Assembly (NCBI GenBank): GCA_963814375.1
Contig: CAWFCQ010000007.1
Coordinates: forward strand, 32,001-96,000
Reading direction: 5' to 3'
Length of the DNA: 64,000 nucleotides
Source of the DNA: an uncultured Chloroflexia bacterium
GTDB lineage: Bacteria; Chloroflexota; Limnocylindria; QHBO01
Positions 22,955 to 60,882 of this stretch are shown in pieces (the stretch's first letter is position 1; each line of letters starts with the position of its first letter). A program made the position numbers and the translations under genes. The notes under the pieces are model-generated. The model did not search any database and was not told where the DNA came from. It worked only from the letters and a program-made list of their open reading frames with translations.

Positions 22955-23737
22955 GCGATCGTCTCGCTACGGGCGACGACGAAGCTGCCGAGCGTCGTGT
23001 CGCGCACCGCCTCGATCCGCAGCTCGTGGGCGCCGGGTCGCAGCGCATCGGTCGCGAACGCGGCGGTGGCCTGGCCGTTGATGACGTTGAGGACCGTGGT
23101 GCCGTCGAGGAGGTGATAGGCGGTGAAGCAACCGGAGAAGCCGCGGTACGCCGACCAGGCGACGTGGGTCATGCCGTCGGCATCGGTGCTCACGGTCGAG
23201 CTCTCCGAGGCTCGCGACCTCACTGAGCCGGGCAGATCGAACCGGCGACGCGCTCACCACCGCTCCCGCCGCGTCGTAGGCCATGACGCGGTAGTTCCAC
23301 AGCGTCTCGGACGGGATGATGCTCGCGTCCACCGCCGAGGTTACGAATCGGTCCGTCGCGAACGTGTCGCCCCAGTCGACGGCCGGGGCGATCGGCGGAT
23401 AGTCAGGAGCGATCGCCCGGCGAGGGCTGCGGAGCGCGATGTAGTGGTCGAAGCTCGGATGCGTGCTGGGCGACCACTCGAGCACGACCCCACCCTCGCA
23501 GCCGATGGCCCGCAGGTCGAGTGCGCCTACGTCCGGGCTCGGCGTTGGAGCCGCGGTGGGCTCCGGGGTCGCGGTTCCGAGCGACGGACTGGCGCCGGGC
23601 GTCTGCGAGCTCGCCGTCGGGCTGGGATCAGGCCCGAACCGGGTCGGCGAGGCCTCCGTCTCCGACGGCGCGCGGATCGTGCAGGCGACCGAGAGCGCGC
23701 CGACGACCACGAGGACGAGGGGGCGGCGCGCGCGCAT
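22939..23737 (-). CDS. Hypothetical lipoprotein, frameshift ~23200
   Basis: Lipobox SVAC, Pro/Thr linker, beta-rich domains. Confidence 0.6.
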
Positions 23738-45302: not shown

Positions 45303-45792
45303 CTCAACCGCCGCCAGCCGCCGCAAGGTCGCGAAGAACGGGTCGCTGGAGGCGCCGAGCCTGGAGGCCAGCCTCATCTCGACCGTGGCGCCGCTGATGC
45401 GTCACCTGGTGGCCCACGCCCGCCGCCGTCGGGCATGGAGCGAGCTCACCTACCAGCAGTACAACGTCCTGCGCATGGTCGACACGCTCGGGCCGCAGCC
45501 GCAGGCCGAGGTCGCGCGCCGGCTGATGGTGACCGCGCCGGTCGTCACCCGCCTCGCCTCGACGCTGTCCGATGCCGGGCTCGTCGAGCGCCACGCCGAT
45601 CCGAAGGACCGCCGCGCGGTGCTCCTGGCGCTGACCCCGACCGGGCGTCGTCGTGCGCGAGCCATGCGCCGCGACCTGCTCGCGGCCGCCCACGAGCTGC
45701 TCGAGCCGATCCCGGAACAGAAGCGGGCCGCCGTGGAATCGGCGCTCGAGGAGCTCCAGGTCCTGCTCCCGCAGCATTCAGCGCGTCGCTGA
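45295..45792 (+). CDS. MarR-family regulator
   Basis: LTYQQYNVL, VTRL...GLVER...DRRAVLLALT..G. Confidence 0.9.
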   Translation: MPTSTAASRRKVAKNGSLEAPSLEASLISTVAPLMRHLVAHARRRRAWSELTYQQYNVLRMVDTLGPQPQAEVARRLMVTAPVVTRLASTLSDAGLVERHADPKDRRAVLLALTPTGRRRARAMRRDLLAAAHELLEPIPEQKRAAVESALEELQVLLPQHSARR

Positions 45793-47176
45793 AGCGGGGC
45801 GGGCGTCCGCCTTTGCCGGGCCGGACGCGGGCCTGGGCGCTGTCGAGGGTCGTGATCCCCAGTGGTCCCCGTTGGAGCGCGTTGCGCAGCCCGACGGCGA
45901 CGATGCCCACCGTGAGCAGGGAGAGCGCCGCGCCCGCGACGAATGCGGCCGGTGTGCCCCAGGCCTCGGCGACACCGCCGGCAAAGAGGCCGCCGATCGG
46001 CGCCGATCCCGCGAAGACGGTCACGTAGAAGCTCATCACGCGGCCGCGGAGCGCATCGGTCACGTTGGCCTGGACCGTCGCATTGATGGTGTTGATCATG
46101 AGCATGCTGGCGTAGCCCGCGGCCATGATCAGAACTCCGGCCACGATCACGTTCCTGGTGGCGGCGATGGCGATGAGAAGCAGCGAGAAGACGAGGCCGC
46201 CGAACAGCATCAGCGGAATGGCTCGCCGGCGTCGCAGGAAGGCCAGTGTCAGCGAGCCTGCCAGCGATCCGACGCCCATCGACGCATACAGCGCGCCGTA
46301 GGCGTCCGGTCCCAGGTCGAGCACGTCGCGAGAGAACAGCGGCAGCAGGATCTGGAAGTTGAAGCCGAACGCGGCGATGCCGCCGAGCAGGACGAGGCAC
46401 CACCGCACGAGTGGGGTGCGCACCGCGAAGTCGAAGCCCTCCTTCAGGCTGTGGAGGACGGGCGGATGCTGCTCGGGGCGTTCGTGCTGACGGATCTGAC
46501 GCGGGTCCATGCGCGCGAGGCCGATGACGACGGCCGCATAGGTGACGGCGTTGATGCCGAGGTTGACCGCCACGCCGGCGATCGACGACCCGGTCGCGGT
46601 CGTCCCGACCGCGATGATGACGCCGGCCAACGCCGGGCCAACCACGCGCGCGGTGTTGAAGGCCATCGAGTTGAGGGCGATCGCGTTCGCCAGCATCGAT
46701 CGCGGCACGAGGTCCGGCGCGAGCGCCTGGCGCAGCGGCATGTCGATCGCGTTGACCAGCCCGAGCATCAGGGCCATCACCATCACCATCCAGATCTGGA
46801 CGACGCCCGTCGCCGTGAGCCCGAAGAGGATGGTGGCCTGGAGAGCTGCGGCAACCTGGGCCGCGAGAAGCGCGCGTCGCTTGTCGATCCGGTCGGCGAA
46901 CACCCCGCCGAACGGCGCCAGCACCATCGACGGCCCGAACTGGAGCACGGCAACGATCCCAAGCTGGATCGGCGAGCCGCCGAGCGACAGGACCAGCCAG
47001 GGCAGGCTGACCTGCTGCATCCAGGTGCCGATGAGGCTGACGACCTGGCCCAGCCAGTAGAGCCGATAGTTCCGAACGCCGAGCGCCTCGAAGCCATGCT
47101 TCAGCCCGCCGAAGGCCGCCTGGAGGGGCAGCGGGCGCGGCTGGTCGGGACGTGGTGCCGGGGCGTTGTCGGCCAA
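45778..47176 (-). CDS. MFS transporter (DHA3/MFS_3-like), 3' end probably frameshifted
   Basis: NYRLYWLGQVVSLIGTWMQ, NAIALNS, LRGRVMS. Confidence 0.85.
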
Positions 47177-47196
47177 CGAGGTCAGCCTCCGCAGAG

Positions 47197-47211
47197 GTTG
47201 CCCATGCTAAC
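47197..47211. promoter_or_regulatory. Candidate MarR operator
   Basis: GTTGCCCATGCTAAC; overlaps TAGCAT -10 on the minus strand. Confidence 0.55.
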
Positions 47212-47228
47212 AACCGCGAACGCGGCCG

Positions 47229-48599
47229 TCATGCCGCCTGGCGGAGGGCCTCCGGCTCGGCCGGTTCCCGGAGCCGGGGCAGCGTCGCGCCCTGCAGCTG
47301 CCAGGCGACAACGGCGAGGACCCCGGCGGCCAGCAGCGCGCCGATGCTGAAGGCGACCGGCGCGCCGAACGCCTGGGCCAGCACGCCGGCGAAGAGGCCG
47401 CCGATCGGCGCGGTGCCGGCGAACACGGTCACATAGAGCGCCATCACTCGCCCGCGGAGCGCATCGGGCACGCTGTTCTGGATGGTGACGTTGATGGTGT
47501 TGACCATCAGCATCGCGGCGAGGCCGATGCCGGCGACGAGCGGGAAGACGACGAGCGGGCTGCGCACGAAGCCGAGCAGGAAGGCGAGCGCCAGAAAGAC
47601 GGCGCCGGCCCCGACGATCAACCGCAGCATCGGCCGCTGGCCCGTCCTGAAAGCAAGTGCCAGCGAGCCGATCAGTGAGCCGGCGCCCATCGTCGCGAAG
47701 AGCGCGCCGTACGCGCCCGAGTCCAGTCCGAGCGTGTCGCGCGTGAAGATCGGCAGGAGCGTCTGGAAGTTCATGGCCAGCGCTGCCACGCCGCCGAGAA
47801 GGACGAGTGGCCACAGAACGGTCGGCGTGGCGCGCGCGTACCGCAGGCCTTCGGCGAGGCTCGATCGCACGGACGGGAAGCGCACGGGGCGAGGCGCGCG
47901 ATACAGGGCGGCAGGATCGATGAGGAACAGGCCGACGAGGACCGAGATGTAGCTGATCGCGTTGACCCCGAAGTTGCTTGCCACGCCGAAGACCGCGATC
48001 GTCACGCCCGCGACCGCCGGCCCGACGACGCGGGAGAGGTTGAACGAGGTCGAGCTGAGCGCGATCGCATTCACGAGGTCACTTCGCGGCACCAGCTCGG
48101 CGACGAACGCCTGGCGCACGGGCATCTCGATGGCGTTCACGAAGCCGGCAACCAGGGCGAGCGCGTAGACGTGCCAGATCTCGACGACGCCCGTCGCGGC
48201 GAGGCCGAAGAGGACCGAGGCCTGGACCATGGCGACGAGGTTCACGACGATCAGCGTTCGCCTCTTGTCGAGCCGATCGGCGAGCACGCCACCGAGCGGC
48301 GCGATGACCATCGACGGGCCGAACATGAAGGCCATGACGAGGCCCAGCTGAAGCGGTGAGCCGCCGAGCTGAAGAACGAGCCACGGGAGCGCGACGGACT
48401 GCATCCAGGCGCCGACGAGGCTTCCGATCTGGCCGAACCAGAAGCGCCGATAGTTCGCGTGGCGCATCGCGCTGAAGCCGCGGCCCAGCCCCTCCTCGCG
48501 CTCGTCCGCCGACGACGCCGCCCCTGCGGGACGGCGCTTGCCCTGCGCGGGTGATGGCTTCGCGCCCGTGATGCGGCGCGAGAGGTCGGTGATCGTCAT
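47229..48599 (-). CDS. MFS transporter (DHA3/MFS_3-like), paralog of neighbour
   Basis: NYRRFWFGQIGSLVGAWMQ, NAIALSS, LRGRVMA. Confidence 0.9.
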   Translation of the reverse strand: MTITDLSRRITGAKPSPAQGKRRPAGAASSADEREEGLGRGFSAMRHANYRRFWFGQIGSLVGAWMQSVALPWLVLQLGGSPLQLGLVMAFMFGPSMVIAPLGGVLADRLDKRRTLIVVNLVAMVQASVLFGLAATGVVEIWHVYALALVAGFVNAIEMPVRQAFVAELVPRSDLVNAIALSSTSFNLSRVVGPAVAGVTIAVFGVASNFGVNAISYISVLVGLFLIDPAALYRAPRPVRFPSVRSSLAEGLRYARATPTVLWPLVLLGGVAALAMNFQTLLPIFTRDTLGLDSGAYGALFATMGAGSLIGSLALAFRTGQRPMLRLIVGAGAVFLALAFLLGFVRSPLVVFPLVAGIGLAAMLMVNTINVTIQNSVPDALRGRVMALYVTVFAGTAPIGGLFAGVLAQAFGAPVAFSIGALLAAGVLAVVAWQLQGATLPRLREPAEPEALRQAA

Positions 48600-48601
48600 T
48601 C

Positions 48602-48616
48602 GTTAGCAATGCTAAC
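48602..48616. promoter_or_regulatory. Candidate MarR operator (7-1-7 palindrome)
   Basis: GTTAGCA-A-TGCTAAC immediately before the MFS ATG. Confidence 0.65.
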
Positions 48617-48749
48617 AAAGTTCCGCGGCTCCTTCAAACGGATCGAAGGACGAATCCAGTTGAGCATCACCGCTCTGATCGGCGATGATGTGCGCACGAC
48701 ACGATCGGTTCGCCAGGCCCAGGAGATCCCGATTCGGAAGAAGCGGCGC

Positions 48750-49994
48750 ATGCCCGCCCTCCGGCCGATACCCCGCGCCCACGTTGCGGCCCTGCTGCTC
48801 TCGCTGCTCGCCGTCCTGGCTCCCGACCTGACGCTGGCGCCCGCGATCGCCGGCGAGCCGCTGGGCGGGCCGAGGCCCATCGACGATTCGGCGCTGCCGG
48901 TCCCGCTCCGCGTCCCCCACGAAGCGGATACCCGGACCGCCGGCGCTCCGGCCCCGGCGCCGGCTCCCGCGCCCGCGCCGGTCCAGACAGAAGTTGCCGA
49001 CGCCGCTCGCTACAAGTCCGCGCTCGACGCCGCGCGCTCGGCGGGATTGGCATACGGGGTCACCTTCGCCGCGGTCCGCGACGGCGAGCTGCTGTGGGCG
49101 GGCGGCATGGGACGGCAGCGCGACGGGCGCACCGAGCTTGCGGCGGACAGCCCGCTCGTCATCGGCAGCGTGACCAAGACCTATGTGGCGGCCACGGTCC
49201 TTCAGCTGGTCGAGGAGGGGCGGCTCGGCCTCGATGACGCGGTGGGCATGCACCTGCCCGAGCTGCGCGGAGTGGCGGGCAAGACCACGGTGCGGCAGCT
49301 GCTCGATCACACCAGTGGACTCGCCGACGTCTTCAACGACACGACGCGGAAGGGTCTCGAGGAGCATCCGGAGCATGCCTGGACGACCGAGGAGGTGCTG
49401 GGCTCGCTCCACGCCCCGTGGTATCAACCGGGCGAGGGCTGGGCGTATGCCAACACCAACTACTACCTGCTCAGCCTCATCGTCGAGCGCCTCACCGGCG
49501 CCACGCTGGCCGATGAGCTCGAGCGCCGCTTCTTCGGCCCGCTCGGGATGGAGGCGACGCGCATCCTGACGCCGGCCGACGCCACGGGCCCCCTGGCGCC
49601 TGCTTGGACCACGATCTTCTGGGGCTCCGGGGCGATGAGCGCCTCCGCCGCCGACGTCGCGCGCTGGGGTGACGCCCTCTACGGCGACAGCCTGCTATCG
49701 CCGACCAGCCGGCGCGCGATGCTGGACCTCAACGACAACGACTACGGCCTCGGCGTGCAGCGTATCGATCTGCCCGGGCTCACCGGCTACGGCCACACCG
49801 GCCTGCTGAACACCTACACCACGCTGCTACTTCACCTGCCGACCGAGCACGTGACGCTCGCGCTGCTCGTCAATCGCAGCGACGTCGACCTGTTCGGCAT
49901 GCTCCTCGCCCACCCCGCCAACGGTGGGCCATCGCTGCTCGAGCTCGCCATCGGCCACGAGCTCGTGCCGCCCGAGGAGCCTCAGTCGCCGTAG
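48750..49994 (+). CDS. Secreted serine hydrolase (beta-lactamase/DD-peptidase family)
   Basis: GSVTKT (SxxK), LLDHTSGL, YANTNY, GHTG. Confidence 0.9.
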   Translation: MPALRPIPRAHVAALLLSLLAVLAPDLTLAPAIAGEPLGGPRPIDDSALPVPLRVPHEADTRTAGAPAPAPAPAPAPVQTEVADAARYKSALDAARSAGLAYGVTFAAVRDGELLWAGGMGRQRDGRTELAADSPLVIGSVTKTYVAATVLQLVEEGRLGLDDAVGMHLPELRGVAGKTTVRQLLDHTSGLADVFNDTTRKGLEEHPEHAWTTEEVLGSLHAPWYQPGEGWAYANTNYYLLSLIVERLTGATLADELERRFFGPLGMEATRILTPADATGPLAPAWTTIFWGSGAMSASAADVARWGDALYGDSLLSPTSRRAMLDLNDNDYGLGVQRIDLPGLTGYGHTGLLNTYTTLLLHLPTEHVTLALLVNRSDVDLFGMLLAHPANGGPSLLELAIGHELVPPEEPQSP

Positions 49995-51987: not shown

Positions 51988-52834
51988 TCAGGTCCCCGAA
52001 CCGAATCGACTCGACATGGCCTCACGTTCGGCTCGCTCGGCCTCGGACGTTTCGGGCATGTACGAGCTGTAAATCACCACTCGCTGGCCCTCGATATCGA
52101 GGTAGATCCTGGTCGACCTGACCGGGACGGTGGTAGCGCCCAGCCAGCTCCGGAACTCGCCGCGGTCGCAGTCGGCGAAGTCGGTGCTCGGACCGTCACT
52201 CGATCATCTTCCCGCCGTAGCCGTCGAGCGTGACATCGACGGAACGTTGTCGACGTTGTGGGCCGAGCGCAAGGCCGGCGGCGCGGATCGTCGACCGTGG
52301 CCCGACGGCGGCGTGATCGCGCCGTCCAGCCACTGCCACGTCGAGGTAACCGGGTCATCGTCATCCCGATCCCGAAGCCCGTCGGGAACAGGGGTCGGCG
52401 ACCTCTGCTCACGCAGCCCTGCGCCGACCCAGCCGGCGGGCATGGTCAGCGTCGTGCCCTCGGGGAGGTACCTGCCATCGGGCCGCCTCGGTGGTCAGCA
52501 GGTAGGTCCCTGGCTCGAGGCTGCTATCGGTGAGGCGGGTGGAGTGGGTGTCGGATCCGGCGATGCATCCTCGATCGGGACCGCCGACACTTGGGGCAAG
52601 GAGATAGTTGTAGCCCAGCAGGGCTGCGACGACCACGGCGGCGGCGGCGAGGCCCAGCTTCATGGCGTTGTTCATCTCGGGAGACCTCCGCGCCGGCCAC
52701 CAGGCCGGGCGCTGATGTGTCGAAGGAAGCTCGGCGCGGATGGCATCGCGGACGTCATCGGGCAACGGCGTGTTGCCCTGGTAGTCATCGAGATAGCTCT
52801 CGAGCTGACCGATGAAGTCGTCGTTGCGTGTCAT
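51988..52834 (-). CDS. Putative anti-sigma/sensor protein of cassette 3, many frameshifts
   Basis: MTRNDDF...WWPARRSPEMNNAMK, TM; DVTLDGYGGK; YLDIEGQRVVI...ETSEAERAE. Confidence 0.65.
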
Positions 52835-53380
52835 GCCGTGCCTCGCGTGACGATCGGCTGCAGATCGGCTTCGATCGCCGATCTGAGCTGCTGGAGTGCG
52901 TAGTGCAGCCGAGAGCGAGCCGTGCCGGCGGGCGTCCCCATCCGTTCGGCTGCCTCGGTCGGGCTCAGGCCCAGGTAGTGGACAAGGACGACGACCGTCC
53001 GATGCTCGACGCTGAGTCGCCGGAAGGCGCCGTCGAGCTGGTCCTGGTTCGCGATCAGTGAGGTCGAGTCCGGGACGCCCTCCCCCGATTCGAGGGAGCA
53101 GCCGCAGGTTGCCGCGCTGACGTCGTTCGCGGCGCGCTTCGGCGTAGCAGGCATGCACGAGAAGCCGATGGGTCCAGGCCTCGAACCGATCGGGATCACG
53201 CAGCTGCGGAAGATGCCGCCAGGCATCGAGCAGCGCCTGCTGGGTGGCGTCCTGGGCGAGGCTCGTATCACGCAGGATCCTGCGTGCCACGGAGTGCAGC
53301 GAGTCGCCGATGCGTCCGACGAGCTCGTCGAATGCCTCTTCGTCGCCGTGCATCGCCCGCTGGACGAGCTCGCGCTCCAT
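52831..53380 (-). CDS. ECF sigma-70 factor, cassette 3, frameshift ~53090
   Basis: GDEEAF, AQDATQQA, RDPDRFEAW, GTARSRLHYA. Confidence 0.9.
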
Positions 53381-53427
53381 GCCTCACCCGCTGAGTGCGC
53401 TGACCGCGGTCTGCGGCCAATCAGTGA

Positions 53428-53458
53428 GTATGAGTGCGCTCGCTCGCCCAGCGTTCAA
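53428..53458 (-). promoter_or_regulatory. Candidate ECF promoter
   Basis: TTGAA-N19-CTCATAC. Confidence 0.7.
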
Positions 53459-53465
53459 CCGCGGC

Positions 53466-54712
53466 TCAGGGGTTGATCTCGATCGCCTCGACGATCCCGC
53501 GCAGCTCTTCAGCTCCGCATCCGGACGTCGCTGAACCAGAAGGCGTCGATATGATGCCGTCGCCATCCAGCATGGATGCATCCAGCCTCGCGTGCTCGTT
53601 GATGATCGGCCTTCGACGGTCGAGCATGCGAGAACCGCCAGCCGCCGGCGAGCTCGGGCCCTGAAGCAGGCCGCGATGTAGTTCGGTAATTCGCGGGAGC
53701 TCCGCATCCGTGACGTCGCTGAACCAGAAGGCGTCGATCATGATCCGTTGCCCCTCCACATCGAGTATCCAGACCTCGTCGTGCTCGTTGATGATGGCCT
53801 CACGGGTCCCGAGCACGTTCGAGAATCTCGCCAGCCGAGCGCAGTCGCCGTCGCCCCCTTCGAAGCTGTACTCGACGTGCTTACCGGCGTAGCCGGAGAG
53901 GGTGACGTCGGTGATCGCGGACGCATCGGTGAAGGGCTGCGCAGCGAGACCTTCGGCAAGCTCGTCGACCGACGGACCGAGCGGCGGGTCCATCTCTTCA
54001 GCGCCCGCGCATGCGTCCGCGGCGAGGTTGGGCACGATCGTGACGATGATGCCGCGCCCTCTCGGCGGGTCGTACGAGACCTGGTAGAGGGCGGCCCCGT
54101 GGATGCTGTTTCCCCCCAGATCCCCCAGTCATCGGTGAGCGGCACGGAGACCTGGATCGGGAAGGGGTCGCCGATGATGTACGTGCCTCTGTCGGAGCCG
54201 ACGGAGCGTGAACCCGCATGCCGGCAAGGTCGTCGAGCGCGGCGTCAGCTGCGCGTAGGCGACTCGGTCGCGGCGCCGACGAAGAGAGAACCGGGTCACC
54301 AATGCCGCCCTCTTGCCAGATGGCGAGGGCGTCCGAGGTGAACTCGAGCTGCACGTTCTGCACCGTGGATCCGTCCGGCATCGCACGGTCTCCGCCGAGA
54401 ACGGGTGGACGAGGGCCTCGGCAGCGCGCCGGCCGCCGGACTGTGCGGCGCCGCGTCGTTCGCGCTCGCCGAAGCTGCCGCACGGCGACGAAGGCAATGC
54501 CGACCGCCAGCACGCTGATGGCCGCGGCGGCCAGCCCGAACCGCATCGTTGTTCATGGTTGCAGTCCTCCGCGCCGGCCACCACGTGGCGCGGCGCTGGG
54601 GGGTCGCGTCGAGCTGATCTAGCACGGCGTCGAGGACGCGGTCCGCCGATTCGTGCTCGTCCGCACTCAGCCACGACCGGACGATGCGCGTCACGTCGCG
54701 ATCGGTGCTCAT
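53466..54712 (-). CDS. Putative anti-sigma/sensor protein of cassette 2, frameshifts and internal duplication
   Basis: MSTDRDVTRIVRSWL...WWPARRTATMNN, TM; DVTLSGYAGK; WILDVEGQRIMI...ELRGIVEAIEINP. Confidence 0.7.
53512..53840. repeat. Imperfect direct duplication (~140 bp, offset ~187) inside the anti-sigma gene
   Basis: GCTCCGCATCCG..GACGTCGCTGAACCAGAAGGCGTCGAT at ~53512 and ~53699; the first copy is indel-ridden. Confidence 0.75.
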
Positions 54713-55257
54713 TGGGCTACCTCCCGCATCGGTGGGCGAGCGTCGGCGTCGAGCGCCGCGCGCAGCCCGCGCATCGCGTAGTGAAGTCGAGAATTGACCG
54801 TCCCGACCGGGATGCCGAGCACCTCGGCAACCCGCTCGAGCGGCAGGTCGAGGTAGTGGCGCAGGACCACTACCGCGCGGTGTTCAAGGGAGAGCCGCCG
54901 GAACCCGCTCTCGAGCTGATCGCGGTCAACGACGGAGTCGATGCCGTCCGCCGCCATCGGCTCGTCAGCCGGCAGAAGGCGGAGGTTGGGTGCCCAGCGA
55001 CGTTGCTTTCGGCCCTCGGCATAGCAGGCGCGCACGAGGAGCCGGTACGACCAGGCCTCGAAGCGAGCCGGATCGCGCAGCTGCGGAAGGTCTCGCCAGA
55101 TGGTCAGCAGCGCCTGCTGCGTCGCATCCTCGGCGAGGTCGAGGTCGCGCAGGATCCTGCGCGCCACGGCGAGGTACCGATCGGCGATGCCGGCGGCAAG
55201 GTCGGCATAGGCCCCCTTGTCGCCACGCTGAGCTCGCACCACCAGGTCGGTATTCAT
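54709..55257 (-). CDS. ECF sigma-70 factor, cassette 2
   Basis: AEDATQQA, RDPARFEAW, GTVNSRLHYA; ATGA overlap with partner. Confidence 0.93.
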   Translation of the reverse strand: MNTDLVVRAQRGDKGAYADLAAGIADRYLAVARRILRDLDLAEDATQQALLTIWRDLPQLRDPARFEAWSYRLLVRACYAEGRKQRRWAPNLRLLPADEPMAADGIDSVVDRDQLESGFRRLSLEHRAVVVLRHYLDLPLERVAEVLGIPVGTVNSRLHYAMRGLRAALDADARPPMREVAQ

Positions 55258-55306
55258 CGCCTCATCCGCATGGGCGGCATCGGCTCAGACCGATGCGCTT
55301 CATACG

Positions 55307-55338
55307 GTATGGGTGATTGGCGCCGATGGGAACTTCAA
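55307..55338 (-). promoter_or_regulatory. Candidate ECF promoter
   Basis: TTGAA-N20-CCCATAC. Confidence 0.65.
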
Positions 55339-55374
55339 AGTTCGGCGGCGCCGACGGCGGACGCGCCGGGAGGC

Positions 55375-56647
55375 TCAGGCCGGTTCGGACCGCTCCTCGG
55401 GTGGCTTGGCCTCGTCGTCGCCCGACGCGGCGTCCTCGGCCAGGCGGTCGGCGGCGAGCGCGACGACCTCCTCGGGCGGGGCGTCGGGCTGCTCGCTGCG
55501 CACCTCCTCGAGAACCTCCTCCAGCTCGGCCTTCGGCGCGTCCTCGATCGTTCGCAGGTTGACCGCGTAGTTGAAGAAGACGTTCAGGACCGCGAAGATC
55601 GGAATGGCGAAGAGGGCACCCCACAGCCCGGCAATCTGTGCCCCGACCAGCAGGCTCACCAGCACGAGGATCGGATGCATTCCGAGGGCGTCGCGCATGA
55701 GCTTGGGCTGGAAGTAGTTCACGAGCACGGTCTGGACGACGAGGAGCAGGGGCGCGACGACGATCAGCCATTCAGGTTTGAAGATCGCGGTCGCCAGGAT
55801 CGGCGGCACCAGGGCCAGCGGCGGGCCGAAGAACGGGATCAGCATGGCCAGCGCCGAGGCCACCACGATCAGGAAGCCGTACGGAAGACCGACGAGCAGC
55901 ACGACCGCGATCGTGAGCGCCGTCTGGATTCGCGGCCAGGACGACCTGCGCTCGCAGGAATCCGCCGAAGGCCGTCGAGACGGTGCGTTCGAGGATCTCC
56001 GCCTCTTCCGCGTATCGGTTCGGGACGATCCGATTCATCCTGGCGACGATCGCCGTGCTGTCGGCGAGCATGTAGAGGCTGAGGATGATCACGAGCACGA
56101 GCGCTCCGAGGATCGCAACGGTGACGGCGGGCGCCTCCCCGAGCGCCGACTGCGCCAGCCGCAGCGCGGTCGCCTCGACGTCGCGGTAGAGGACGACCAG
56201 GTCCGGCGCAAATTCGCCGAATGAGATCGAGCTCTGCCAATCGGCCAGGGTGGCCTCGATGCGCTCACGAGTCTGCGGGAAGTCCGAGGCCGCCTCCCCA
56301 ACCGACGCGCCGATGGCCGAGGCCGCATAGAAGAGGAGAATCCCGCTGCCGACCAGGGTCGCGGCGTAGACGATGCCGACCGCGACACCTCGCCGCAGGC
56401 CTGCGCGCTCCACGAGCCACGCCACCACCGGCGACAGGACGAAGGCAAGCAGCCAGGCCATGAACACGATGAGGAAGATCTGCGCGAAGCCGCCGAGGAC
56501 CTGAAGGAGAAGGCCGAACAGCAGCAGGCCCACGTAGATCGTGCCCACGATGAGCAGGGCGGACAGCCACCAGCGGTCGCGCCGTCGCCGCGCGCTCGTG
56601 TCCTTCGCTCGGTTGTTTCCGGCCGGCTTCGCCGTTTGCTTCGCCAT
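55375..56647 (-). CDS. AI-2E family transporter, frameshift ~55925
   Basis: LSPVVAWL, FGGFLRAQ, IPFFGP, MHPILV, GLWGALFAIP. Confidence 0.88.
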
Positions 56648-56726
56648 CTCGTGGCGCAGTCTGCACGTCGCTGTCCAGCTCGGCAGTGCGCGCAGAACGA
56701 GCCCCGCTTCCGTGGGCTCAAGTTGC

Positions 56727-56758
56727 GCAGGGCGCAACCAATGGCGGTTGCGCCCTGC
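56727..56758. terminator. Hairpin downstream of amidase (no U-tract)
   Basis: GCAGGGCGCAACC-N6-GGTTGCGCCCTGC, perfect 13-bp stem. Confidence 0.55.
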
Positions 56759-56766
56759 CGTCCTAG

Positions 56767-58341
56767 CTAGGGCCCGATCGACGGGATGAACGTCGGCGGC
56801 ACGCGGACCATCGTCGCCTGCTCGAAGTCGTAGGCGAACGCGATCAGATCGGCCTCACTGAACTGTCCGCCGATGAACGAGACCCCGATCGGCAGAACGT
56901 CGTCGGCGTAGCCGGCGGGCACCGTCACGTTGGCCCAGCCGGTGATCGCCGATGGAGTCGACGAGCCGATGAACGGCGAGCCGTCGCTCAGGTCGCCGCC
57001 GACCGGATCGGTCAGCCAGGCCGGCCCGTTCGTCGGCGCGATGATCGCGTCGACGCCGGCGAGCGCCTCGGTGAGGGCGGTCTCGGCGATCCCGTCTGCC
57101 TCGGCGCGGATGGCGGCACATGCGGCGTCGCGGCCGTTCGTTGCCTCGGCCAGCTCGAAGATCTCCGAATCCCACGGGCCCTCGAGCTCCGGGTTGGCCT
57201 CATTGAAGTCGATGACGTCCTGCAGCGTCTTCGGGTATCCCACGCCGGTGTACGTCGCGAAGTACGCCGGCAGATCGGCCTTGAACTCGCACAGCAATGC
57301 GTCGAACTCGGGACCGAAGGAATCCTCGATGGCGACGTCGACCTCGACCACGGTGGCGCCCTGGGCTTCGATGGCGTCGACCGTGGCGTCCATGACGGCC
57401 GCCACGTCCGCGTCGAGGACCTCGCCCTCCGAGATGTAGGTGCCGTCGCGCCACACGCCGATGACCGCCCCCTCGAGCGCATCGGCGTCCAGGGATCCGG
57501 TGTAGTCGGCAGGCGTCGCCGCCATCGCGCCGAGGAGCACGGCTGCATCGGTGACGTTGCGCGCCATCGGACCCGCAGTGTCCTGCTCGGATGAGATCGG
57601 GATGATGCCCTCACCGCTGAGCAGGCCAAGCGTCGGCTTGATGCCGACGATGCCGTTCGCGCCGGAGGGGCATACGATCGAACCGTCGGTCTCGGTGCCG
57701 ACCGCCGCGACGGCGAGGCTCGCCGAGACAGCCACACCCGAGCCGGAGCTGGAGCCGCACGGGTTGCGGTCGAGGACGTAGGCCAGGTTCGTCTGGCCGC
57801 CGACGCCGCTCCAGCCGCTCGACGACGGGATCGAGCGGAAGTTCGCCCACTCGGAAAGGTTCGCCTTGCCGATGATGATGGCCCCGGCCGCTCTCAGCTG
57901 CTCGATGATGTCTGCGTCGGCGGGTGTGCTCCCGGCCAATGACCACGAGCCGCCGGTGTTCGGCATGCCGGTCGTGTTGATGTTGTCCTTCACGATGATC
58001 GGAATCCCGAGCAGCGGTCGATCGTCGCCACGACGCCGGGCCTTGTCGGCCGCGCGCGCCTCGGCGAGGGCCGTCGGGCTCACGGTGATGACCGCGTTGA
58101 GCATCCCGTCCAGCTTCTTGATCCGATGCAGATAGAACTGCGTCAGCTGCACCGCGGTCAGCTTGTGGCTGTCCATCAGCGCCTGGAGCTGCGGGATGGT
58201 CGACGCATCGACGTCGACCCCGCGGACCGTGGTGGAGGTCGGTTTCCTGCCCAGCGCAACTGGCGCGGCGATCGCCGACAGGGCGAGCAGCAGCGCCAAC
58301 AGGATGACAAGACCGATTGACCGTCGGGCGGGACCGTTCAT
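56767..58341 (-). CDS. Secreted amidase (amidase signature family)
   Basis: Signal peptide; VKDN, GKANLSEWA, CGSSSGS, GTETDGSI. Confidence 0.93.
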   Translation of the reverse strand: MNGPARRSIGLVILLALLLALSAIAAPVALGRKPTSTTVRGVDVDASTIPQLQALMDSHKLTAVQLTQFYLHRIKKLDGMLNAVITVSPTALAEARAADKARRRGDDRPLLGIPIIVKDNINTTGMPNTGGSWSLAGSTPADADIIEQLRAAGAIIIGKANLSEWANFRSIPSSSGWSGVGGQTNLAYVLDRNPCGSSSGSGVAVSASLAVAAVGTETDGSIVCPSGANGIVGIKPTLGLLSGEGIIPISSEQDTAGPMARNVTDAAVLLGAMAATPADYTGSLDADALEGAVIGVWRDGTYISEGEVLDADVAAVMDATVDAIEAQGATVVEVDVAIEDSFGPEFDALLCEFKADLPAYFATYTGVGYPKTLQDVIDFNEANPELEGPWDSEIFELAEATNGRDAACAAIRAEADGIAETALTEALAGVDAIIAPTNGPAWLTDPVGGDLSDGSPFIGSSTPSAITGWANVTVPAGYADDVLPIGVSFIGGQFSEADLIAFAYDFEQATMVRVPPTFIPSIGP

Positions 58342-58409
58342 CGCAGGAGAACCTCCACGCGGGCGGGGCGTGCGCCGCTCATCGGGCGCAATTGGACGCT
58401 CGCGGAGGC

Positions 58410-58425
58410 AGCAGGTTTCGTGCCG
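58410..58425 (-). promoter_or_regulatory. sigma54-like -24/-12 element
   Basis: CGGCACGaaacCTGCT on the minus strand, about 70 nt before amidase ATG. Confidence 0.45.
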
Positions 58426-58469
58426 CAACCCGCAGTCTCTGGCGGCGTGACAGCGGCTACGCTGACAGC

Positions 58470-58907
58470 GTGACGATTCAGCGGATGGACAACGTTGGGA
58501 TCGTCGTCGACGACCTCAAAGCTGCCATAGCGTTCTTCGTCGCACTGGGCCTGGAGCTGGAGGGCGAGGCGACGGTCGAGGGACAGTCGGTGGACCGCGT
58601 CGTAGGGCTCGACGGTGTCCGCAGCGACATCGCCATGCTGCGGACCCCGGACGGCCACGGCCGGATTGAGCTGAGCAAGTTCCACTCTCCGCCGGCGACC
58701 GCCGCCGAGCCGAACGCCCCGGTGAACCGGCTCGGCACGGGTCGCATCATGTTCGCCGTCGACGACATCGAGCAGGTCCTTGCCCGCGCGGAGGCGCTCG
58801 GCGCCGAGCTCGTCGGCGAGGTCGTGCAGTACGAGGACACATACCGGCTCTGCTACATCCGCGGCCCGGAAGGAATCCTCGTGGCGCTCGCGGAGGAGCT
58901 GAGCTGA
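58470..58907 (+). CDS. VOC/glyoxalase family protein
   Basis: MDNVGIVVDDL, IELSKF, LCYIRGPEGI. Confidence 0.9.
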   Translation: MTIQRMDNVGIVVDDLKAAIAFFVALGLELEGEATVEGQSVDRVVGLDGVRSDIAMLRTPDGHGRIELSKFHSPPATAAEPNAPVNRLGTGRIMFAVDDIEQVLARAEALGAELVGEVVQYEDTYRLCYIRGPEGILVALAEELS

Positions 58908-59417
58908 TGGAGACGTGGCAGGCCATCAACTCCGTGCGTGTCGTTCGAGAGTTCACGGATCAACCGCTCGATGAGGCGCACGTCGAACGCATCCTCAACG
59001 CCGGCCGGCGGACGGGCAGCTCGAAGAACCGTCAGATGTGGGCCTTCATCCACATCACCGACCGCGACCTCCTGGGCGAGCTGGCCGCGGTGGGTCGATA
59101 CGCGGGGCACCTTTCGGGTGCGGCAGCAGCGGTGGCGCTCGTGACGCCGGAGCCGGCGAGCCCATCGGTCATGTGGGACATCGGGCGGGCGGCGCAGAGC
59201 ATGGTCCTGGCCGCCTGGGAGCTCGGTATCGGCAGCGTGCCGGCAACCGTGTACGACCACGACATGGCGCATCGGCTGCTGGGGCTGCCCGAAGATCGGC
59301 GGTGCGACTTCCTGCTGTCGTTCGGTTACCCGGCCGACCCAGAGCCTGCTCACAGCGCCGAATCGATCAGGTGGACGCCTCCCGCTCGAGGAGGTCGTCC
59401 ACCGCGAACGCTGGTAG
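58907..59417 (+). CDS. Nitroreductase family protein, frameshift near end
   Basis: RVVREF, SSKNRQMW, DIGRAAQSM, FGYP. Confidence 0.88.
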
Positions 59418-59432
59418 GACCGATGCCGGCAG

Positions 59433-60337
59433 CTACGGCTCGATCTGGATCGAGTCCACCATCGCCCGGAGCTCGGCCTGGTGCTGCGCCGACGTCCCTT
59501 CGTAGTCATCGGCATGGATCACCACGCGGATGCCATCGACGTCGAGGATCCAGAGGTGCCATCGCTGGCCGGCCCCCTGGGCGTAGATTCCCGGATCCCA
59601 TGGGCGGTAGAACGCGCATCCGGTGAGATCCGCTGGCGTCTGAAGGTCCATGTACTTGCCGGAGTAGCCATCGAGCGTGATGTCGACGGGAGCTGTCGTG
59701 TCCAGCAGCGGATGCTCCGCGAGCGCGTTCGCAAAATCATCCACGCTGGGGCCAACTGGGATGTCAGGGTTCGCCTCGGCGCACGGATCGCTTGCCAGCC
59801 AGCTGCCCCGCATGAAGAGGAGGCTCGTACCGCCAGGCGGAGCTGCGCCCCCGTCAGTCAGCCAAAACACATTCTCGTCACTTTCGAACTGGGTCCAGCC
59901 CTCCGGGACGGTGAACGTGATGCTGATCTCGGCTGCCTCGGTGGGGTCGCAGTCGGGCCCGCTCGGCTCCGGACAGGCGCCCCACCCGCCGGCGTTCGCA
60001 AACGGATGGGCAACATAGGTACCCGCAGCCAGGCGCCCTGTATGGAGGGCAAGGGGAGTGCTGTTGGAATGGGCGTAGGGCCCGGATCTCCCAGGTTCTG
60101 ACCCGGTCCCAGGAATCTGAGGCCGATGAAGGCGACGACCAGGACGGCCGCGGCCGCCATGGCGATCTTCGCGGTGTTGTTCATTTCGGGAAGCCTCCGG
60201 CCGAGCCAGCCGGCCCGGCGCTGGGGGGTCGCGGGGAGCTGATCGAGCACGGTATCCAGGACAGCGTCCGGGAGCGCCGTGACGCCCTCCTCCAGCCACG
60301 ACCGAACGGTGCGCGTGACGTCGCGATCGGTGCTCAT
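59433..60337 (-). CDS. Putative anti-sigma/sensor protein of cassette 1, frameshift ~60060
   Basis: MSTDRDVTRTVRSWL...RRLPEMNNTAK, TM; FTVPEGW; DITLDGYSGK; WILDVDGIRVVI...AELRAMVDSIQIEP. Confidence 0.75.
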
Positions 60338-60882
60338 TGCGCAGCCTCCCGCGCAGTCGGCCGCGCGTCGGCGTCGAGCGCCGCGCGCAGCCCGCGCATC
60401 GCGTGATGAAGTCGAGATCGGGCCGTCCCGGCCGGGACGCCGAGCGTCTCGGCGACCTGGTCGAGCGGCATGTCGAGGTAGTGGTGCAGCACCACCACCG
60501 CGCGATGATCGATGGAGAGCCGCCGGAATCCGCGCTCGAGCTGGTCGCGATCGACGACCGCGCTCGAGCCATCCGCCTGCATCGGCTCAACGGAGGGAAG
60601 CAGGTGCATGTTCGGCGTCCATTGGCGCGATCGGCGTCCCTCGGCGTAGCAGGCGCGCACGAGGAGCCGATACGACCAGGCGTCGAAGCGCGCCGGATCG
60701 CGGAGCTGCGGAAGGTCCCGCCAGATCGCAAGCAGCGCCTGCTGCGTCGCGTCCTCGGCGAGCTCGATGTCGCGCAGGATCCTGTACGACACCGCATGGA
60801 GCCGGTCGCCGGCGGCCACGGCGAGGCTTGCGAAGGCCTCTTCGTCACCACGCTGCGCTCGAATCACGAGATCGGTATCCAT
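60334..60882 (-). CDS. ECF sigma-70 factor, cassette 1
   Basis: GDEEAF, AEDATQQA, RDPARFDAW, GTARSRLHHA. Confidence 0.93.
   Translation of the reverse strand: MDTDLVIRAQRGDEEAFASLAVAAGDRLHAVSYRILRDIELAEDATQQALLAIWRDLPQLRDPARFDAWSYRLLVRACYAEGRRSRQWTPNMHLLPSVEPMQADGSSAVVDRDQLERGFRRLSIDHRAVVVLHHYLDMPLDQVAETLGVPAGTARSRLHHAMRGLRAALDADARPTAREAAQ

What the first reader, a model, noticed from the sequence alone, without database searches (positions are those of the whole stretch)
52673..60198. All three anti-sigma genes hide a conserved internal RBS and start codon: possibly two proteins per gene
Seen: about 50 codons into each putative anti-sigma gene, just before the TM helix, the minus strand reads cGGAGG-N9-ATG AAC AAC in frame. 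Copy 3 has GGAGG at 52689-52685 and ATG at 52675. Copy 2 has 54570-54566 and ATG 54556. Copy 1 has 60198-60194 and ATG 60184. The three spacer codons differ (SPE/TAT/LPE), yet the SD, the 9-nt spacing and the A-rich ATGAACAAC are invariant. The Arg-Arg is always coded CGG AGG. Established: AGG is a rare Arg codon in GC-rich bacteria, and SD plus a short spacer plus A-rich early codons is a strong initiation context. The downstream peptide (e.g. MNNAMKLGLAAAAVVVAALLG) reads like a signal peptide or anchor. Inference: each gene makes a full-length anti-sigma (cytoplasmic sigma-binding N-domain, TM, sensor) and a short isoform without the inhibitory domain. The short form could be a decoy, a co-receptor that sets the signalling threshold, or the output protein itself. 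I am not aware of this being described for ECF systems.
Basis: partly seen in the sequence, partly recalled or inferred. Interest (0 to 1): 0.85.

Follow-up and report, generated by a model that had tools for sequence, protein, structure and literature searches.

The report
Conserved second start inside anti-sigma genes
A large family of membrane-bound partner genes of stress sigma factors in uncultured Limnocylindria bacteria carries a strongly conserved ribosome-binding site and start codon about 52 codons inside the gene, so each gene probably makes both a full-length regulator and a shorter membrane protein that lacks the part expected to hold the sigma factor.

Summary
GGAGG-N9-ATGAACAAC occurs three times on the minus strand at the stated coordinates (0.02 expected). 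Each lies in frame 51-53 codons into the gene after an ECF sigma gene, just before a hydrophobic helix.

In 205 non-identical homologues (204 sites) from Candidatus Limnocylindria MAGs:
- The Arg four codons before the Met is AGG in 168 of 187. AGG is used 7 times in 704 at five control Arg columns of the same genes, and for 3.3% of Arg genome-wide.
- GGAGG lies 4-12 nt upstream in 165, at exactly 9 nt in 154.
- The Met is replaced mainly by GTG (10) or TTG (3).
- Members without the SD mostly lack a start codon (15 of 18).
- On a tree, 7 of 8 independent SD changes go with a start-codon change.
- Divergent members rebuild the SD through other amino acids.
- mRNA structure is weakest at this site, and no conserved RNA fold exists.

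Best reading, about 0.75: a selected internal initiation site. It would give a sensor-only, membrane-anchored isoform beside the full-length protein, whose start is coupled to the sigma stop (ATGA). The isoform's role is unknown.

Caveats: there are no protein data, and all six copies in this MAG carry frame breaks. I found no description of this in five literature searches.

The parts
60334..60882 (-). ECF sigma factor gene, copy 1 (182 aa, intact). Its TGA stop at 60336-60334 overlaps the partner's ATG.
60345..60350 (-). SD (GGGAGG) of the first, full-length start of copy 1, 7 nt before ATG 60337.
   Evidence: Family-wide, 150 of 153 first starts overlap the sigma stop as ATGA and 140 of 153 have an SD core.
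60185..60337 (-). Codons 1-51 of the partner gene, copy 1: the cytoplasmic N-terminal domain and the juxtamembrane linker. This is the presumed sigma-binding part.
   Evidence: In a homologue model, helices at 4-17 and 24-33 and low confidence at 38-49. Complex prediction gave weak support: 0.53 against 0.02.
60194..60198 (-). Internal SD GGAGG of copy 1, spanning CGG AGG (Arg-Arg).
60182..60184 (-). Internal start codon ATG of copy 1 (codon 52), 9 nt after the SD.
60110..60172 (-). Hydrophobic transmembrane or signal-anchor segment of copy 1 (AKIAMAAAAVLVVAFIGLRFL).
   Evidence: In the homologue model the TM helix sits at residues 54-75.
59433..60032 (-). Extracytoplasmic C-terminal domain of copy 1 with its stop codon. 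It lies in a different frame from the N-terminal part, so there is a frame break near 60032-60045.
   Evidence: AF2 pLDDT 89.3. PsbP/Mog1/LpqN-like fold.
54709..55257 (-). ECF sigma factor gene, copy 2 (182 aa).
54557..54712 (-). Codons 1-52 of the partner gene, copy 2. The first start ATG at 54712 overlaps the sigma stop, and its SD GGGAGG is at 54725-54720.
54566..54570 (-). Internal SD GGAGG of copy 2.
54554..54556 (-). Internal ATG of copy 2. The frame breaks right after ATG AAC AAC.
53700..54546 (-). Remainder of copy 2 (TM helix from ATG 54546, linker, C-terminal domain), spread over several frames.
52831..53380 (-). ECF sigma factor gene, copy 3, with one frame break near 53080.
52676..52834 (-). 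Codons 1-53 of the partner gene, copy 3 (first ATG at 52834, ATGA overlap).
52685..52689 (-). Internal SD GGAGG of copy 3.
52673..52675 (-). Internal ATG of copy 3.
52012..52672 (-). Remainder of copy 3 (TM helix, linker, fragments of the C-terminal domain), frame-broken.

Best explanation
Each of the three genes, and the family they belong to, is the single-pass membrane partner of an ECF sigma factor and carries two translation start sites.

The first start overlaps the sigma stop codon as ATGA and has its own SD. Ribosomes finishing sigma can therefore go on to make the full-length protein: about 45 cytoplasmic residues, a linker, a TM helix and an extracytoplasmic domain. This would tie full-length output to sigma output.

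The second start lies 49-54 codons further on, in the sequence coding the juxtamembrane linker. It consists of GGAGG complementary to the CCUCC tail of the 16S rRNA, usually a 9-nt spacer, ATG (rarely GTG or TTG), and A-rich early codons in the least structured stretch of the mRNA. It would recruit ribosomes independently.

The product would be a protein of about 240 residues. It would start M-N-x-x-K/R, insert as a signal-anchor, and carry the same sensor domain without the presumed sigma-binding part.

Shown here: selection at the nucleotide level for SD plus start codon. Inferred: that the site is used, that the N-terminal part binds sigma, and what the short form does. My favoured guess is that the short form competes with or pairs with the full-length protein at the membrane, for ligand, protease or partner. 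That would set the threshold or gain of the sigma response. I hold that guess at no more than about one in three.
For: Data set. 205 non-identical rows, which are 204 sites. They come from loci and from the window's genome, aligned to one profile. Rows from two unpublished genomes were removed.

1. Synonymous constraint.
- Arg at column 49 is AGG in 168 of 187 (AGA 5, CGN 14).
- At control Arg columns 5, 9, 12, 40 and 41 of the same genes, AGG is 1/131, 1/150, 2/112, 2/179 and 1/132.
- Genome-wide, AGG is 438 of 13,375 Arg codons, or 3.3%.
- The preceding codon is CGG in 92 of 98 Arg, or TGG in 77 Trp, so it nearly always ends in GG.
- After thinning to under 65% nucleotide identity in the flanks (83 rows), AGG is still 58 of 71, against at most 2 per control column.

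2. SD and spacing.
- GGAGG lies 4-12 nt upstream in 165 of 205, at exactly 9 nt in 154. A 4-nt core is present in 22 more, and 18 have none.
- Background: 76 of 4,608 deep in-frame ATGs have GGAGG at 4-12 nt. 5 of 14,567 deep in-frame ATG/GTG codons have it at exactly 9 nt.
- Near the 5' ends of long ORFs in this genome, GGAGG counts are highest at spacings 4-9 nt (8-17 per spacing, top at 8 and 9).
- The 16S rRNA ends ...GGATCACCTCCTTT.

3. Start-codon behaviour of the Met column. It reads ATG 170, Val GTG 10 against GTC 1, and Leu TTG 3, CTG 5, TTA 1. All three TTG rows have GGAGG, while 4 of the 5 CTG rows have no SD.

4. Co-loss.
- With an SD core, 180 have a start codon and 7 do not. Without one, 3 have a start codon and 15 do not. 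Uncorrected Fisher p = 5.8e-15.
- On a tree of sigma plus N-terminal domain with the trait columns left out (138 of 205 rows), there are 8 independent pairs that differ in SD. The start codon goes the same way in 7, the opposite way in 0, and is unchanged in 1. Sign test p is about 0.016.

5. Convergence. Divergent members keep an SD core through other residues: Ser-Gly-Gly, Ala-Gly-Gly, Leu-Glu-Gly, Thr-Glu-Glu, Lys-Glu, Met-Arg, Gln-Arg and AGG-AGG.

6. mRNA. In 174 members the mean folding energy of 42-nt windows is weakest of the whole -240 to +300 range at +6 to +12 from the internal ATG. It is about -7.6 to -8.0 kcal/mol there, against roughly -9 to -20 elsewhere.

7. N-terminus of the short form. 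K or R falls within residues 2-9 in 180 of 180 members with SD plus start, against 18 of 25 without. Residue 2 is Asn in 126 of 180.

8. Specificity. Of 10 non-family ECF partner ORFs with a TM segment in the same genome, only 1 has an SD core plus ATG before the TM.

9. The upstream part is also a real coding region.
- 153 of 153 first starts that reach profile position 1 are ATG.
- 150 overlap the sigma stop as ATGA.
- The 45-residue domain is conserved as protein.

10. Sigma with the N-terminal 54 residues. ipSAE is 0.53 against a best control of 0.02, which the tool rates as weak support. The mark was reached by 58 of 80 solved complexes and 2 of 110 mismatched pairs. At 0.60 or under it was reached by only 7 of those 80 and by both mismatches. 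The runs agree in at least 74% of contacts, and partner pLDDT is at least 63. My own alignments were used.

11. The SD/ATG region codes a low-confidence linker (pLDDT under 50 at residues 38-49 of a homologue model). Fold therefore does not explain its conservation.
Against: - There is no protein, ribosome-profiling or N-terminal peptide evidence. The organisms are uncultured, and the tool for public sequencing runs could not be reached.
- Ribosomes coming from the first start pass over the internal site and may occlude it, so its actual use could be low.
- Several other columns also show codon bias beyond the family background: column 12 CGG 77%, column 38 CCA 64%, columns 46-47 CCG 90% and GCG 96%. 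Some synonymous conservation therefore reflects shared ancestry or an additional unknown constraint just upstream of the SD.
- The residues W-W-P-A-R-R and the Met could also have a protein-level role at the membrane interface.
- About 9% of members (18 of 205) have neither SD core, and most of these lack the start, so the short form is dispensable in some paralogues.
- All six copies in this MAG are frame-broken as assembled. Here neither isoform would be intact unless the breaks are assembly errors.
- The sigma-binding role of the N-terminal part rests on context and a weak prediction only.
Confidence: 0.75

Rival explanations
1. The GGAGG is an SD-like ribosome pause site inside one ordinary gene. 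It slows elongation just before the TM helix is made, either to give time for membrane targeting or for the N-terminal domain to bind nascent sigma. On this reading the Met is simply a conserved residue and only one protein is made.
For: The element always lies just upstream of the TM-coding segment. Pausing at internal SD-like sequences has been proposed in the literature; this is recalled and was not checked here. The full-length frame is open across the site in all 205 rows, because each profile hit lies on one stop-free piece.
Against: - A pause site needs no start codon, yet the Met column accepts almost only ATG, GTG or TTG when the SD is present (161 of 165 with GGAGG).
- The Met column is lost together with the SD (15 of 18 without SD lack a start). 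7 of 8 independent pairs on the tree go the same way.
- K/R at residues 2-9 is universal only where SD and start are both present.
- mRNA structure is weakest just after the ATG, as at gene starts.
Confidence: 0.08
2. There is nothing functional at the RNA level. Arg-Arg and Met are kept for protein reasons (positive-inside rule, membrane interface), and CGG AGG is inherited from a recent common ancestor of an expanded paralogue family.
For: The family is a lineage-specific expansion. Matches were found only in two families of one class among 401 genomes sampled from the phylum. Several other columns keep unusual codons.
Against: - AGG is 1% at five other conserved Arg columns of the same genes (7 of 704) and 90% here.
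- The bias persists in rows thinned to under 65% flank identity.
- The three spacer codons vary freely.
- The SD is rebuilt through different amino acids in divergent members.
- Val at the Met column is GTG in 10 of 11, against a family background of 33% GTG.
Confidence: 0.04
3. The internal ATG is the only real start of the membrane protein. On this reading the upstream 50 codons are not made as part of it, so the long form is an annotation artefact.
For: The internal SD is on average stronger than the first one: GGAGG in 165 of 205 against 77 of 153. Gene callers sometimes pick the internal start. In one 90% cluster, 3 of 8 members are the 241-aa form and 5 are the 292-aa form.
Against: - The upstream 45 residues are conserved as protein.
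- They start with ATG in 153 of 153 and overlap the sigma stop as ATGA in 150 of 153.
- They have an SD core in 140 of 153.
- They are always in frame with no stop before the internal Met.
- A profile of this part finds 3,580 cluster representatives at E up to 0.001.
Confidence: 0.05
4. The short form is made mainly from a separate, shorter transcript that starts inside the sigma gene or the N-terminal coding part. The internal SD then serves that transcript, rather than internal initiation on the full-length mRNA.
For: None directly. It would explain why a strong SD is tolerated inside an ORF and would avoid occlusion by upstream ribosomes.
Against: No conserved nucleotide block other than GGAGG and ATG is seen in the 48 nt upstream across 70 diverse members. 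Promoters were not analysed, and this variant still gives two proteins per gene.
Confidence: 0.08

Closest known systems
In-frame internal translation initiation giving N-terminally truncated isoforms in bacteria. Recalled examples: IF2 alpha/beta, ClpB, CheA long/short, SctQ/SpaO. Abstracts seen in search listings: genome-wide mapping with retapamulin (bioRxiv 10.1101/520783), AerR long/short isoforms (PMC6199135), dual-isoform Fha (PMC13389060).
   Same: One ORF with a second SD plus start codon in frame inside it. The short product lacks an N-terminal regulatory part. In the known cases the two forms act together or against each other.
   Different: None of these is an anti-sigma factor or a single-pass sensor. 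Here the evidence is evolutionary (about 200 homologues) and not biochemical. The first start is coupled to the upstream sigma gene, which would give the two starts different inputs.
ECF sigma / single-pass transmembrane anti-sigma pairs (RseA, RsiW, RsiV and RslA types; names recalled).
   Same: An ECF sigma gene is followed at once by a co-translated gene for a protein with a short cytoplasmic N-terminal part, one TM helix and an extracytoplasmic domain.
   Different: The N-terminal part is only about 45 residues with two predicted helices. It matches no known anti-sigma domain family. The internal start has no described counterpart in the papers I searched.
Short (class II, CnrY/NepR-like) and class III (RsbN-like) anti-sigma domains. 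Names recalled. The abstract of the RsbN structure paper PMC6101532 was seen in a search listing.
   Same: Small helical sigma-binding modules without the class I signature.
   Different: No sequence or profile match was found here. The relation was not tested by structure.
PsbP / Mog1 / LpqN / Apa / MTC28 / Tsi3 alpha-beta sandwich domains.
   Same: The commonest C-terminal domain of the family (128 of 165 members) folds with pLDDT 89.3. It matches these structures at Foldseek E about 1e-5 to 1e-3, with TM-scores of 0.35-0.46 by query length and 0.31-0.56 by target length for the matches at E up to 0.001.
   Different: There is no Pfam match, identity is 7-15% and TM-scores are modest. This is a fold likeness, not family membership.

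Membership tests
ECF (group IV) sigma-70 factors | Sigma-70 region 2 and region 4 only, about 180 residues. | tested here: met
   PF04542 1.8e-09-range hit (E 2.2e-09) and PF08281 (E 1.8e-10), both over their cut-offs. TIGR02937 at 61.5 bits against a cut-off of 42.9. More specific models (TIGR02983 and others) are below cut-off.
Class I anti-sigma factors (ASD-I: zf-HC2 / RskA-type N-terminal domain) | N-terminal domain of about 80-90 residues that matches the ASD-I profiles. | tested here: not met
   No Pfam or NCBIfam hit at E up to 1 for the window proteins. No relevant hit for 41 N-terminal domains or in PDB sequences. The domain is about 45 residues with two helices.
Membrane anti-sigma partner of an ECF sigma (functional class) | Gene directly downstream of the sigma gene and co-expressed with it. 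| tested here: met
   ATGA stop/start overlap in 150 of 153 family members and in all three window copies.
Membrane anti-sigma partner of an ECF sigma (functional class) | Single TM helix between a cytoplasmic N-terminal part and an outside domain. | tested here: met
   Hydrophobic stretch right after the internal Met. Model helix at 54-75, followed by a Pro/Thr-rich linker and a folded domain.
Membrane anti-sigma partner of an ECF sigma (functional class) | The N-terminal part binds and inhibits its sigma factor. | tested here: inconclusive
   score 0.53 against a best control of 0.02, rated weak support by the tool.
Bacterial genes with an in-frame internal translation start (dual-isoform genes) | SD complementary to the organism's own 16S tail, at working distance from an in-frame start codon. 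| tested here: met
   16S 3' end CCTCCTTT. GGAGG at 9 nt in 154 of 205 rows. Near real 5' ends in this genome, GGAGG counts are highest at spacings 4-9 nt.
Bacterial genes with an in-frame internal translation start (dual-isoform genes) | Selection on the site beyond the protein sequence: synonymous constraint, start-codon swaps, co-loss. | tested here: met
   AGG 168/187 against 7/704. GTG 10 of 11 Val. 7 of 8 independent pairs change together.
Bacterial genes with an in-frame internal translation start (dual-isoform genes) | Open mRNA structure at the site. | tested here: met
   weakest predicted folding of the -240 to +300 range at +6 to +12; no conserved pairing in 70 sequences.
Bacterial genes with an in-frame internal translation start (dual-isoform genes) | Two protein products detected, with the short one dependent on the internal SD and ATG. 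| not testable with these tools
   The lineage is uncultured. The sequencing-run tool was unreachable.

The most novel reading that the evidence does not exclude
A whole, very large family of ECF anti-sigma genes in Limnocylindria is built as a two-output gene. The family has 3,580 representatives of 50%-identity clusters in a global protein library.

The full-length inhibitor would be made by ribosomes handed over from the sigma gene, and so roughly one per sigma. An independent, stronger internal ribosome-binding site would make an excess of the same membrane sensor without its sigma-binding head.

The headless sensor would act as a built-in competitor or partner for ligand, protease or oligomer formation. 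It would set the threshold, gain or reset of the sigma response. This would be a regulatory layer not described for ECF signalling.
Probability: 0.3. Interest if true: 0.85.

Novelty: new variant of a known kind. Interest (0 to 1): 0.74.

Why it matters
ECF sigma / anti-sigma pairs are among the commonest bacterial signalling devices, and the anti-sigma gene is usually read as one gene giving one protein. Here the comparative signal for a second, internal start is unusually clean. A codon used for 3% of Arg is fixed at 90% of sites. The SD is rebuilt through other amino acids. SD and start codon are lost together.

If the short form is made, these systems have a built-in sensor-only protein whose amount is set separately from the inhibitor. 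That changes how their stoichiometry and threshold should be modelled.

The result also shows that internal starts can be found from genomes alone in lineages that cannot be grown. It explains why gene callers disagree on the start of these genes (292 against 241 residues in one cluster). It gives a simple bench test on a synthesised operon.

Tried and rejected
Conserved RNA structure around the site. RNAalifold on 70 diverse members (126 nt each) predicted 0 pairs, so I rejected a riboswitch-like or SD-masking hairpin as a conserved feature. Strong average folding at about -24 and +42 is left unexplained. It may only reflect GC-rich Trp/Pro/Ala/Arg and Ala-run codons.

A general habit of ECF partner genes in this genome. 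Of 10 non-family partner ORFs with a TM segment, only one (contig C6 near 133830) has GGAG plus ATG before the TM. Rejected as a general habit.

Standalone short-form genes. A profile of the common C-terminal domain finds only the six family loci in this genome, so there is no separate gene for a headless sensor here.

Known family for the N-terminal domain. Pfam, NCBIfam and PDB sequence searches gave nothing relevant. The one PDB hit is a designed repeat protein and I take it as chance.

Frame breaks.
- rpoB, rpoC and uvrA are open over 1159, 1491 and 1008 codons.
- All six family copies, a second uvrA-like gene and an AI-2E transporter fragment beside copy 2 are broken.
- I could not decide between pseudogenes and local assembly errors.

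Searches that failed.
I repeated it with the single window protein.
- The look-up of sequencing runs could not be reached in five tries, and read laying was therefore never used.

Literature. Five searches and passages in four papers gave no case of an internal start in an anti-sigma gene. The Ribo-seq papers' supplementary tables could hold such a case.

Full report
WHAT IS THERE

The pattern GGAGG-N9-ATGAACAAC occurs three times in the window. All three are on the minus strand, at 52689-52667, 54570-54548 and 60198-60176. Dinucleotide-preserving shuffles expect 0.02 matches.

Each site lies in frame 51-53 codons after an ATG (52834, 54712, 60337). That ATG overlaps, as ATGA, the stop codon of a gene for an ECF sigma factor. 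The sigma assignment rests on Sigma70_r2 and r4_2 over their cut-offs and TIGR02937 at 61.5 bits against a cut-off of 42.9.

After the internal Met comes a hydrophobic helix, then a Pro/Thr-rich linker and a folded domain.

The window is part of a 2.5-Mb, 70% GC, eight-contig MAG that is 89% complete. Record titles of related loci place the family in Candidatus Limnocylindria, phylum Chloroflexota. A few MAGs in that list carry other labels.

The same genome has three more copies on contig C5. There Trp-Arg (TGG AGG) gives the same GGAGG-N9-ATGAAC.

All six copies in this assembly are frame-broken.
- Copy 1 changes frame between the linker and the C-terminal domain.
- Copy 2 changes frame right after ATG AAC AAC.
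- Copy 3 changes frame after the TM helix, and its sigma gene is also broken.

By contrast, rpoB, rpoC and uvrA are open over 1159, 1491 and 1008 codons. Eighty-three homologues in other genomes are intact at 270-340 residues.

I cannot tell pseudogenes from local assembly errors. The tool for public reads could not be reached.

THE COMPARATIVE TEST

Searches.
- The N-terminal 99 residues of copy 1 against 61 related genomes: 33 had a match.
- A profile against 401 genomes sampled from the phylum: 23 had a match. All 23 were in two families of one class, 13 of 16 and 9 of 23 without the window's genome. None of the other genomes sampled had a match.
- One scan of named genome contigs, which gave 53 loci.

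I then fetched further matched places. I aligned all six-frame pieces to one profile and kept non-identical rows that cover both the Arg and the Met columns. Rows from two unpublished genomes were removed. This left 205 rows. One of them is the same site read in a neighbouring frame, so there are 204 sites.

Results.
- SD. GGAGG lies 4-12 nt before the aligned codon in 165 rows, at exactly 9 nt in 154. Another 22 rows have a 4-nt SD core, and 18 have none.
- Second Arg. It is AGG in 168 of 187 rows, AGA in 5 and CGN in 14.
- Control Arg columns. At five other conserved Arg columns of the same genes, AGG is 1/131, 1/150, 2/112, 2/179 and 1/132.
- Preceding codon. It is CGG in 92 of 98 Arg rows, or TGG in 77 Trp rows.
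- Genome background. AGG is 3.3% and CGG 27% of Arg codons in 846 long ORFs.
- Thinned set. After thinning to under 65% nucleotide identity in the flanks (83 rows), AGG is still 58 of 71, with at most 2 at any control column.

THE MET COLUMN BEHAVES AS A START CODON

The column reads ATG in 170 rows. Val is GTG in 10 and GTC in 1. Leu is TTG in 3, CTG in 5 and TTA in 1. Fifteen rows have something else. The family background for Val is 33% GTG and for Leu about 5% TTG.

All three TTG rows keep GGAGG. Four of the five CTG rows have lost the SD.

SD and start go together.
- Among rows with an SD core, 180 have ATG, GTG or TTG and 7 do not.
- Among rows without an SD core, 3 have a start codon and 15 do not.

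Relatives are not independent, so I built a tree from the sigma protein plus the N-terminal domain, leaving out the trait columns. This used 138 of the 205 rows. The other 67 lacked an intact sigma or first start in the locus. On that tree there are 8 independent pairs that differ in SD. The start codon changes the same way in 7, the opposite way in 0, and not at all in 1. The sign test gives p of about 0.016.

Divergent members keep an SD core through other amino acids: Ser-Gly-Gly, Ala-Gly-Gly, Leu-Glu-Gly, Thr-Glu-Glu, Lys-Glu, Met-Arg, Gln-Arg and AGG-AGG. That pattern is what selection on the RNA predicts, not selection on the protein.

OTHER FEATURES OF A START SITE

- The 16S rRNA ends ...CACCTCCTTT.
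- Near the 5' ends of long ORFs in this genome, GGAGG counts are highest at spacings 4-9 nt. Deep inside ORFs, GGAGG at exactly 9 nt from an in-frame ATG or GTG occurs 5 times in 14,567. At 4-12 nt from an in-frame ATG it occurs 76 times in 4,608.
- In 174 members, predicted folding of 42-nt windows is weakest of the whole -240 to +300 range at +6 to +12 from the internal ATG. It is about -7.6 to -8.0 kcal/mol there, against roughly -9 to -20 elsewhere. A second weak spot sits at the first start.
- RNAalifold finds no conserved pairing in 70 diverse members.
- The would-be short protein has K or R within residues 2-9 in 180 of 180 members with SD and start. Without them the count is 18 of 25. 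Its second residue is Asn in 126 of 180.
- Its median length is 241 residues.

THE LONG FORM IS ALSO REAL

All 153 rows that reach profile position 1 start with ATG. Of these, 150 overlap the sigma stop as ATGA, and 140 have an SD core: GGAGG in 77 and a 4-nt core in 63. The 45 residues before the linker are conserved as protein.

A model of an intact homologue has these features:
- 331 residues, pLDDT 82;
- two helices, at 4-17 and 24-33;
- a low-confidence stretch at 38-49, which is the part that codes the SD;
- a TM helix at 54-75;
- a linker;
- a domain at 121-331.

A complex prediction of sigma with the N-terminal 54 residues gave 0.53 against a best control of 0.02. The tool rates this as weak support.
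- The mark was reached by 58 of 80 solved complexes and 2 of 110 mismatched pairs.
- At 0.60 or under it was reached by only 7 of the 80 and by both mismatches.
- The runs agree in at least 74% of contacts, and partner pLDDT is at least 63.
- My own alignments were used.

The N-terminal part matches no Pfam, NCBIfam or PDB family. 'Anti-sigma' therefore remains an inference from context.

THE OUTSIDE DOMAIN

Of the 165 members with a short form of at least 150 residues, 128 share one C-terminal domain. Others carry different domains, for example a repeat protein with Kelch-like repeats (my reading of the sequence; not tested against Pfam or a fold library). The N-terminal module with its internal start is thus combined with different sensors.

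The common domain of copy 1 folds with pLDDT 89.3. It resembles PsbP, Mog1, LpqN, Apa, MTC28 and Tsi3 structures at Foldseek E of 1e-5 to 1e-3, with TM-scores of 0.35-0.46 by query length and 0.31-0.56 by target length. It has no Pfam match.

In this genome that domain occurs only in the six family loci.

SPECIFICITY AND SIZE OF THE FAMILY

Of 10 other ECF partner ORFs with a TM segment in this genome, one has an SD core plus ATG before the TM.

A profile of the N-terminal 54 positions finds 3,580 representatives of 50%-identity clusters at E up to 0.001, and 1,264 at E up to 1e-10, among 1.84 billion. Met sits at the internal-start column in 143 of 151 aligned stretches of the best 150.

Sources call these proteins 'hypothetical protein'. 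In one 90% cluster, 5 members have 292 residues and 3 have 241 residues starting at the internal Met. Gene callers therefore already disagree on the start.

HOW IT MOST LIKELY WORKS

Shown: purifying selection keeps an SD and a start codon, at working distance and in an open stretch of mRNA, inside the coding sequence.

Inferred:
- Ribosomes that end the sigma gene restart at the overlapping ATG and make the full-length protein.
- Other ribosomes bind the internal SD and make a headless, membrane-anchored sensor.

The role of the short form is open. I favour a competitor or partner of the full-length protein that tunes the response, but I hold this at no more than about one in three.

Rivals I judge unlikely: a pause element, phylogenetic inertia, and the long form being an annotation artefact. 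Each fails to explain the start-codon behaviour, the control columns, or the conserved and coupled first start. A separate internal transcript cannot be excluded, and it would still give two proteins.

WHAT IS KNOWN

In-frame internal starts are an accepted phenomenon in bacteria. I saw a passage to that effect in bioRxiv 10.1101/2022.11.09.515450 and abstracts of 10.1101/520783, PMC6199135 and PMC13389060 in search listings.

Five full-text searches and passages in four papers gave no case in an anti-sigma gene. One paper on Limnocylindria only counts sigma factors (PMC13212565, passages seen). Supplementary files were not seen.

I file the finding as a new variant of a known kind: a known mechanism (internal initiation) in a known device (ECF sigma and membrane partner), in a combination and with a depth of conservation that I did not find described.

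UNPUBLISHED GENOMES

L008 (from G006) and L014 (from G034) were flagged unpublished. L008 is one of the 20 rows of alignment A1, so it is part of the profile used to find and align rows. Both loci, and rows identical to them, were removed before all counts from then on.

Noticed in passing
window 52012-55257 and 59433-60882; genome contig C5 about 177900-183450: All six sigma-partner modules of this family in the MAG carry one or more frame breaks. rpoB, rpoC and uvrA (about 11 kb together) are open, and 83 homologues elsewhere are intact. The breaks are either decaying paralogues or local assembly errors in repeated or strain-variable DNA.
   Followed up: partly
genome contig C8 about 19510-23351: A second uvrA-like gene is split over several frames, with one in-frame TGA. 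The main uvrA at C8:526605-529409 is intact.
   Followed up: no
window 55378-56737: The AI-2E family transporter is seen only as a C-terminal fragment (profile positions 214-325 of 327) in the frame of 55378-55902. A neighbouring ORF lies in another frame, so this is probably another frame-broken gene. It sits between copy 2 and an intact amidase (56770-58428) and a glyoxalase-family gene (58317-58904).
   Followed up: no
loci L102, L103, L105, L106 (20-kb stretches of three related genomes): The family forms dense arrays. Between 4 and 7 sigma-partner modules were found within 13-20 kb of one contig, mostly on one strand and nearly all with the internal GGAGG-ATG. This is a lineage-specific expansion of one signalling module.
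   Followed up: partly
family alignment, profile columns 46-47 (window copy 3: 52695-52690; copy 2: 54576-54571): The two codons before the SD are also nearly fixed at the synonymous site: Pro CCG in 92 of 102 and Ala GCG in 91 of 95. The family backgrounds are 39% and 37%. The constrained block is therefore CCGGCGCGGAGG, longer than an SD needs. Column 12 (CGG 77%) and column 38 (CCA 64%) are also odd. This is unexplained.
   Followed up: partly
genome contig C6 near 133830 (plus strand), downstream ORF: An unrelated ECF partner ORF has GGAG, 7 nt, then ATG just before its TM segment (…RRSSQ-M-GRIGR…). It may be a second, independent case of the same arrangement.
   Followed up: no
family-wide, -30 to -18 and +36 to +42 from the internal ATG: Average predicted mRNA folding is strongest (about -18 kcal/mol per 42 nt) on both sides of the open start region. 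RNAalifold nevertheless finds no conserved pairs. This may be only GC-rich codon runs, or it may be non-conserved local hairpins that frame the site.
   Followed up: partly
window 48555-49991 and 45548-48602: A serine beta-lactamase / penicillin-binding-family gene lies next to two adjacent MFS_3 transporter genes. This looks like ordinary accessory content and was not examined further.
   Followed up: no
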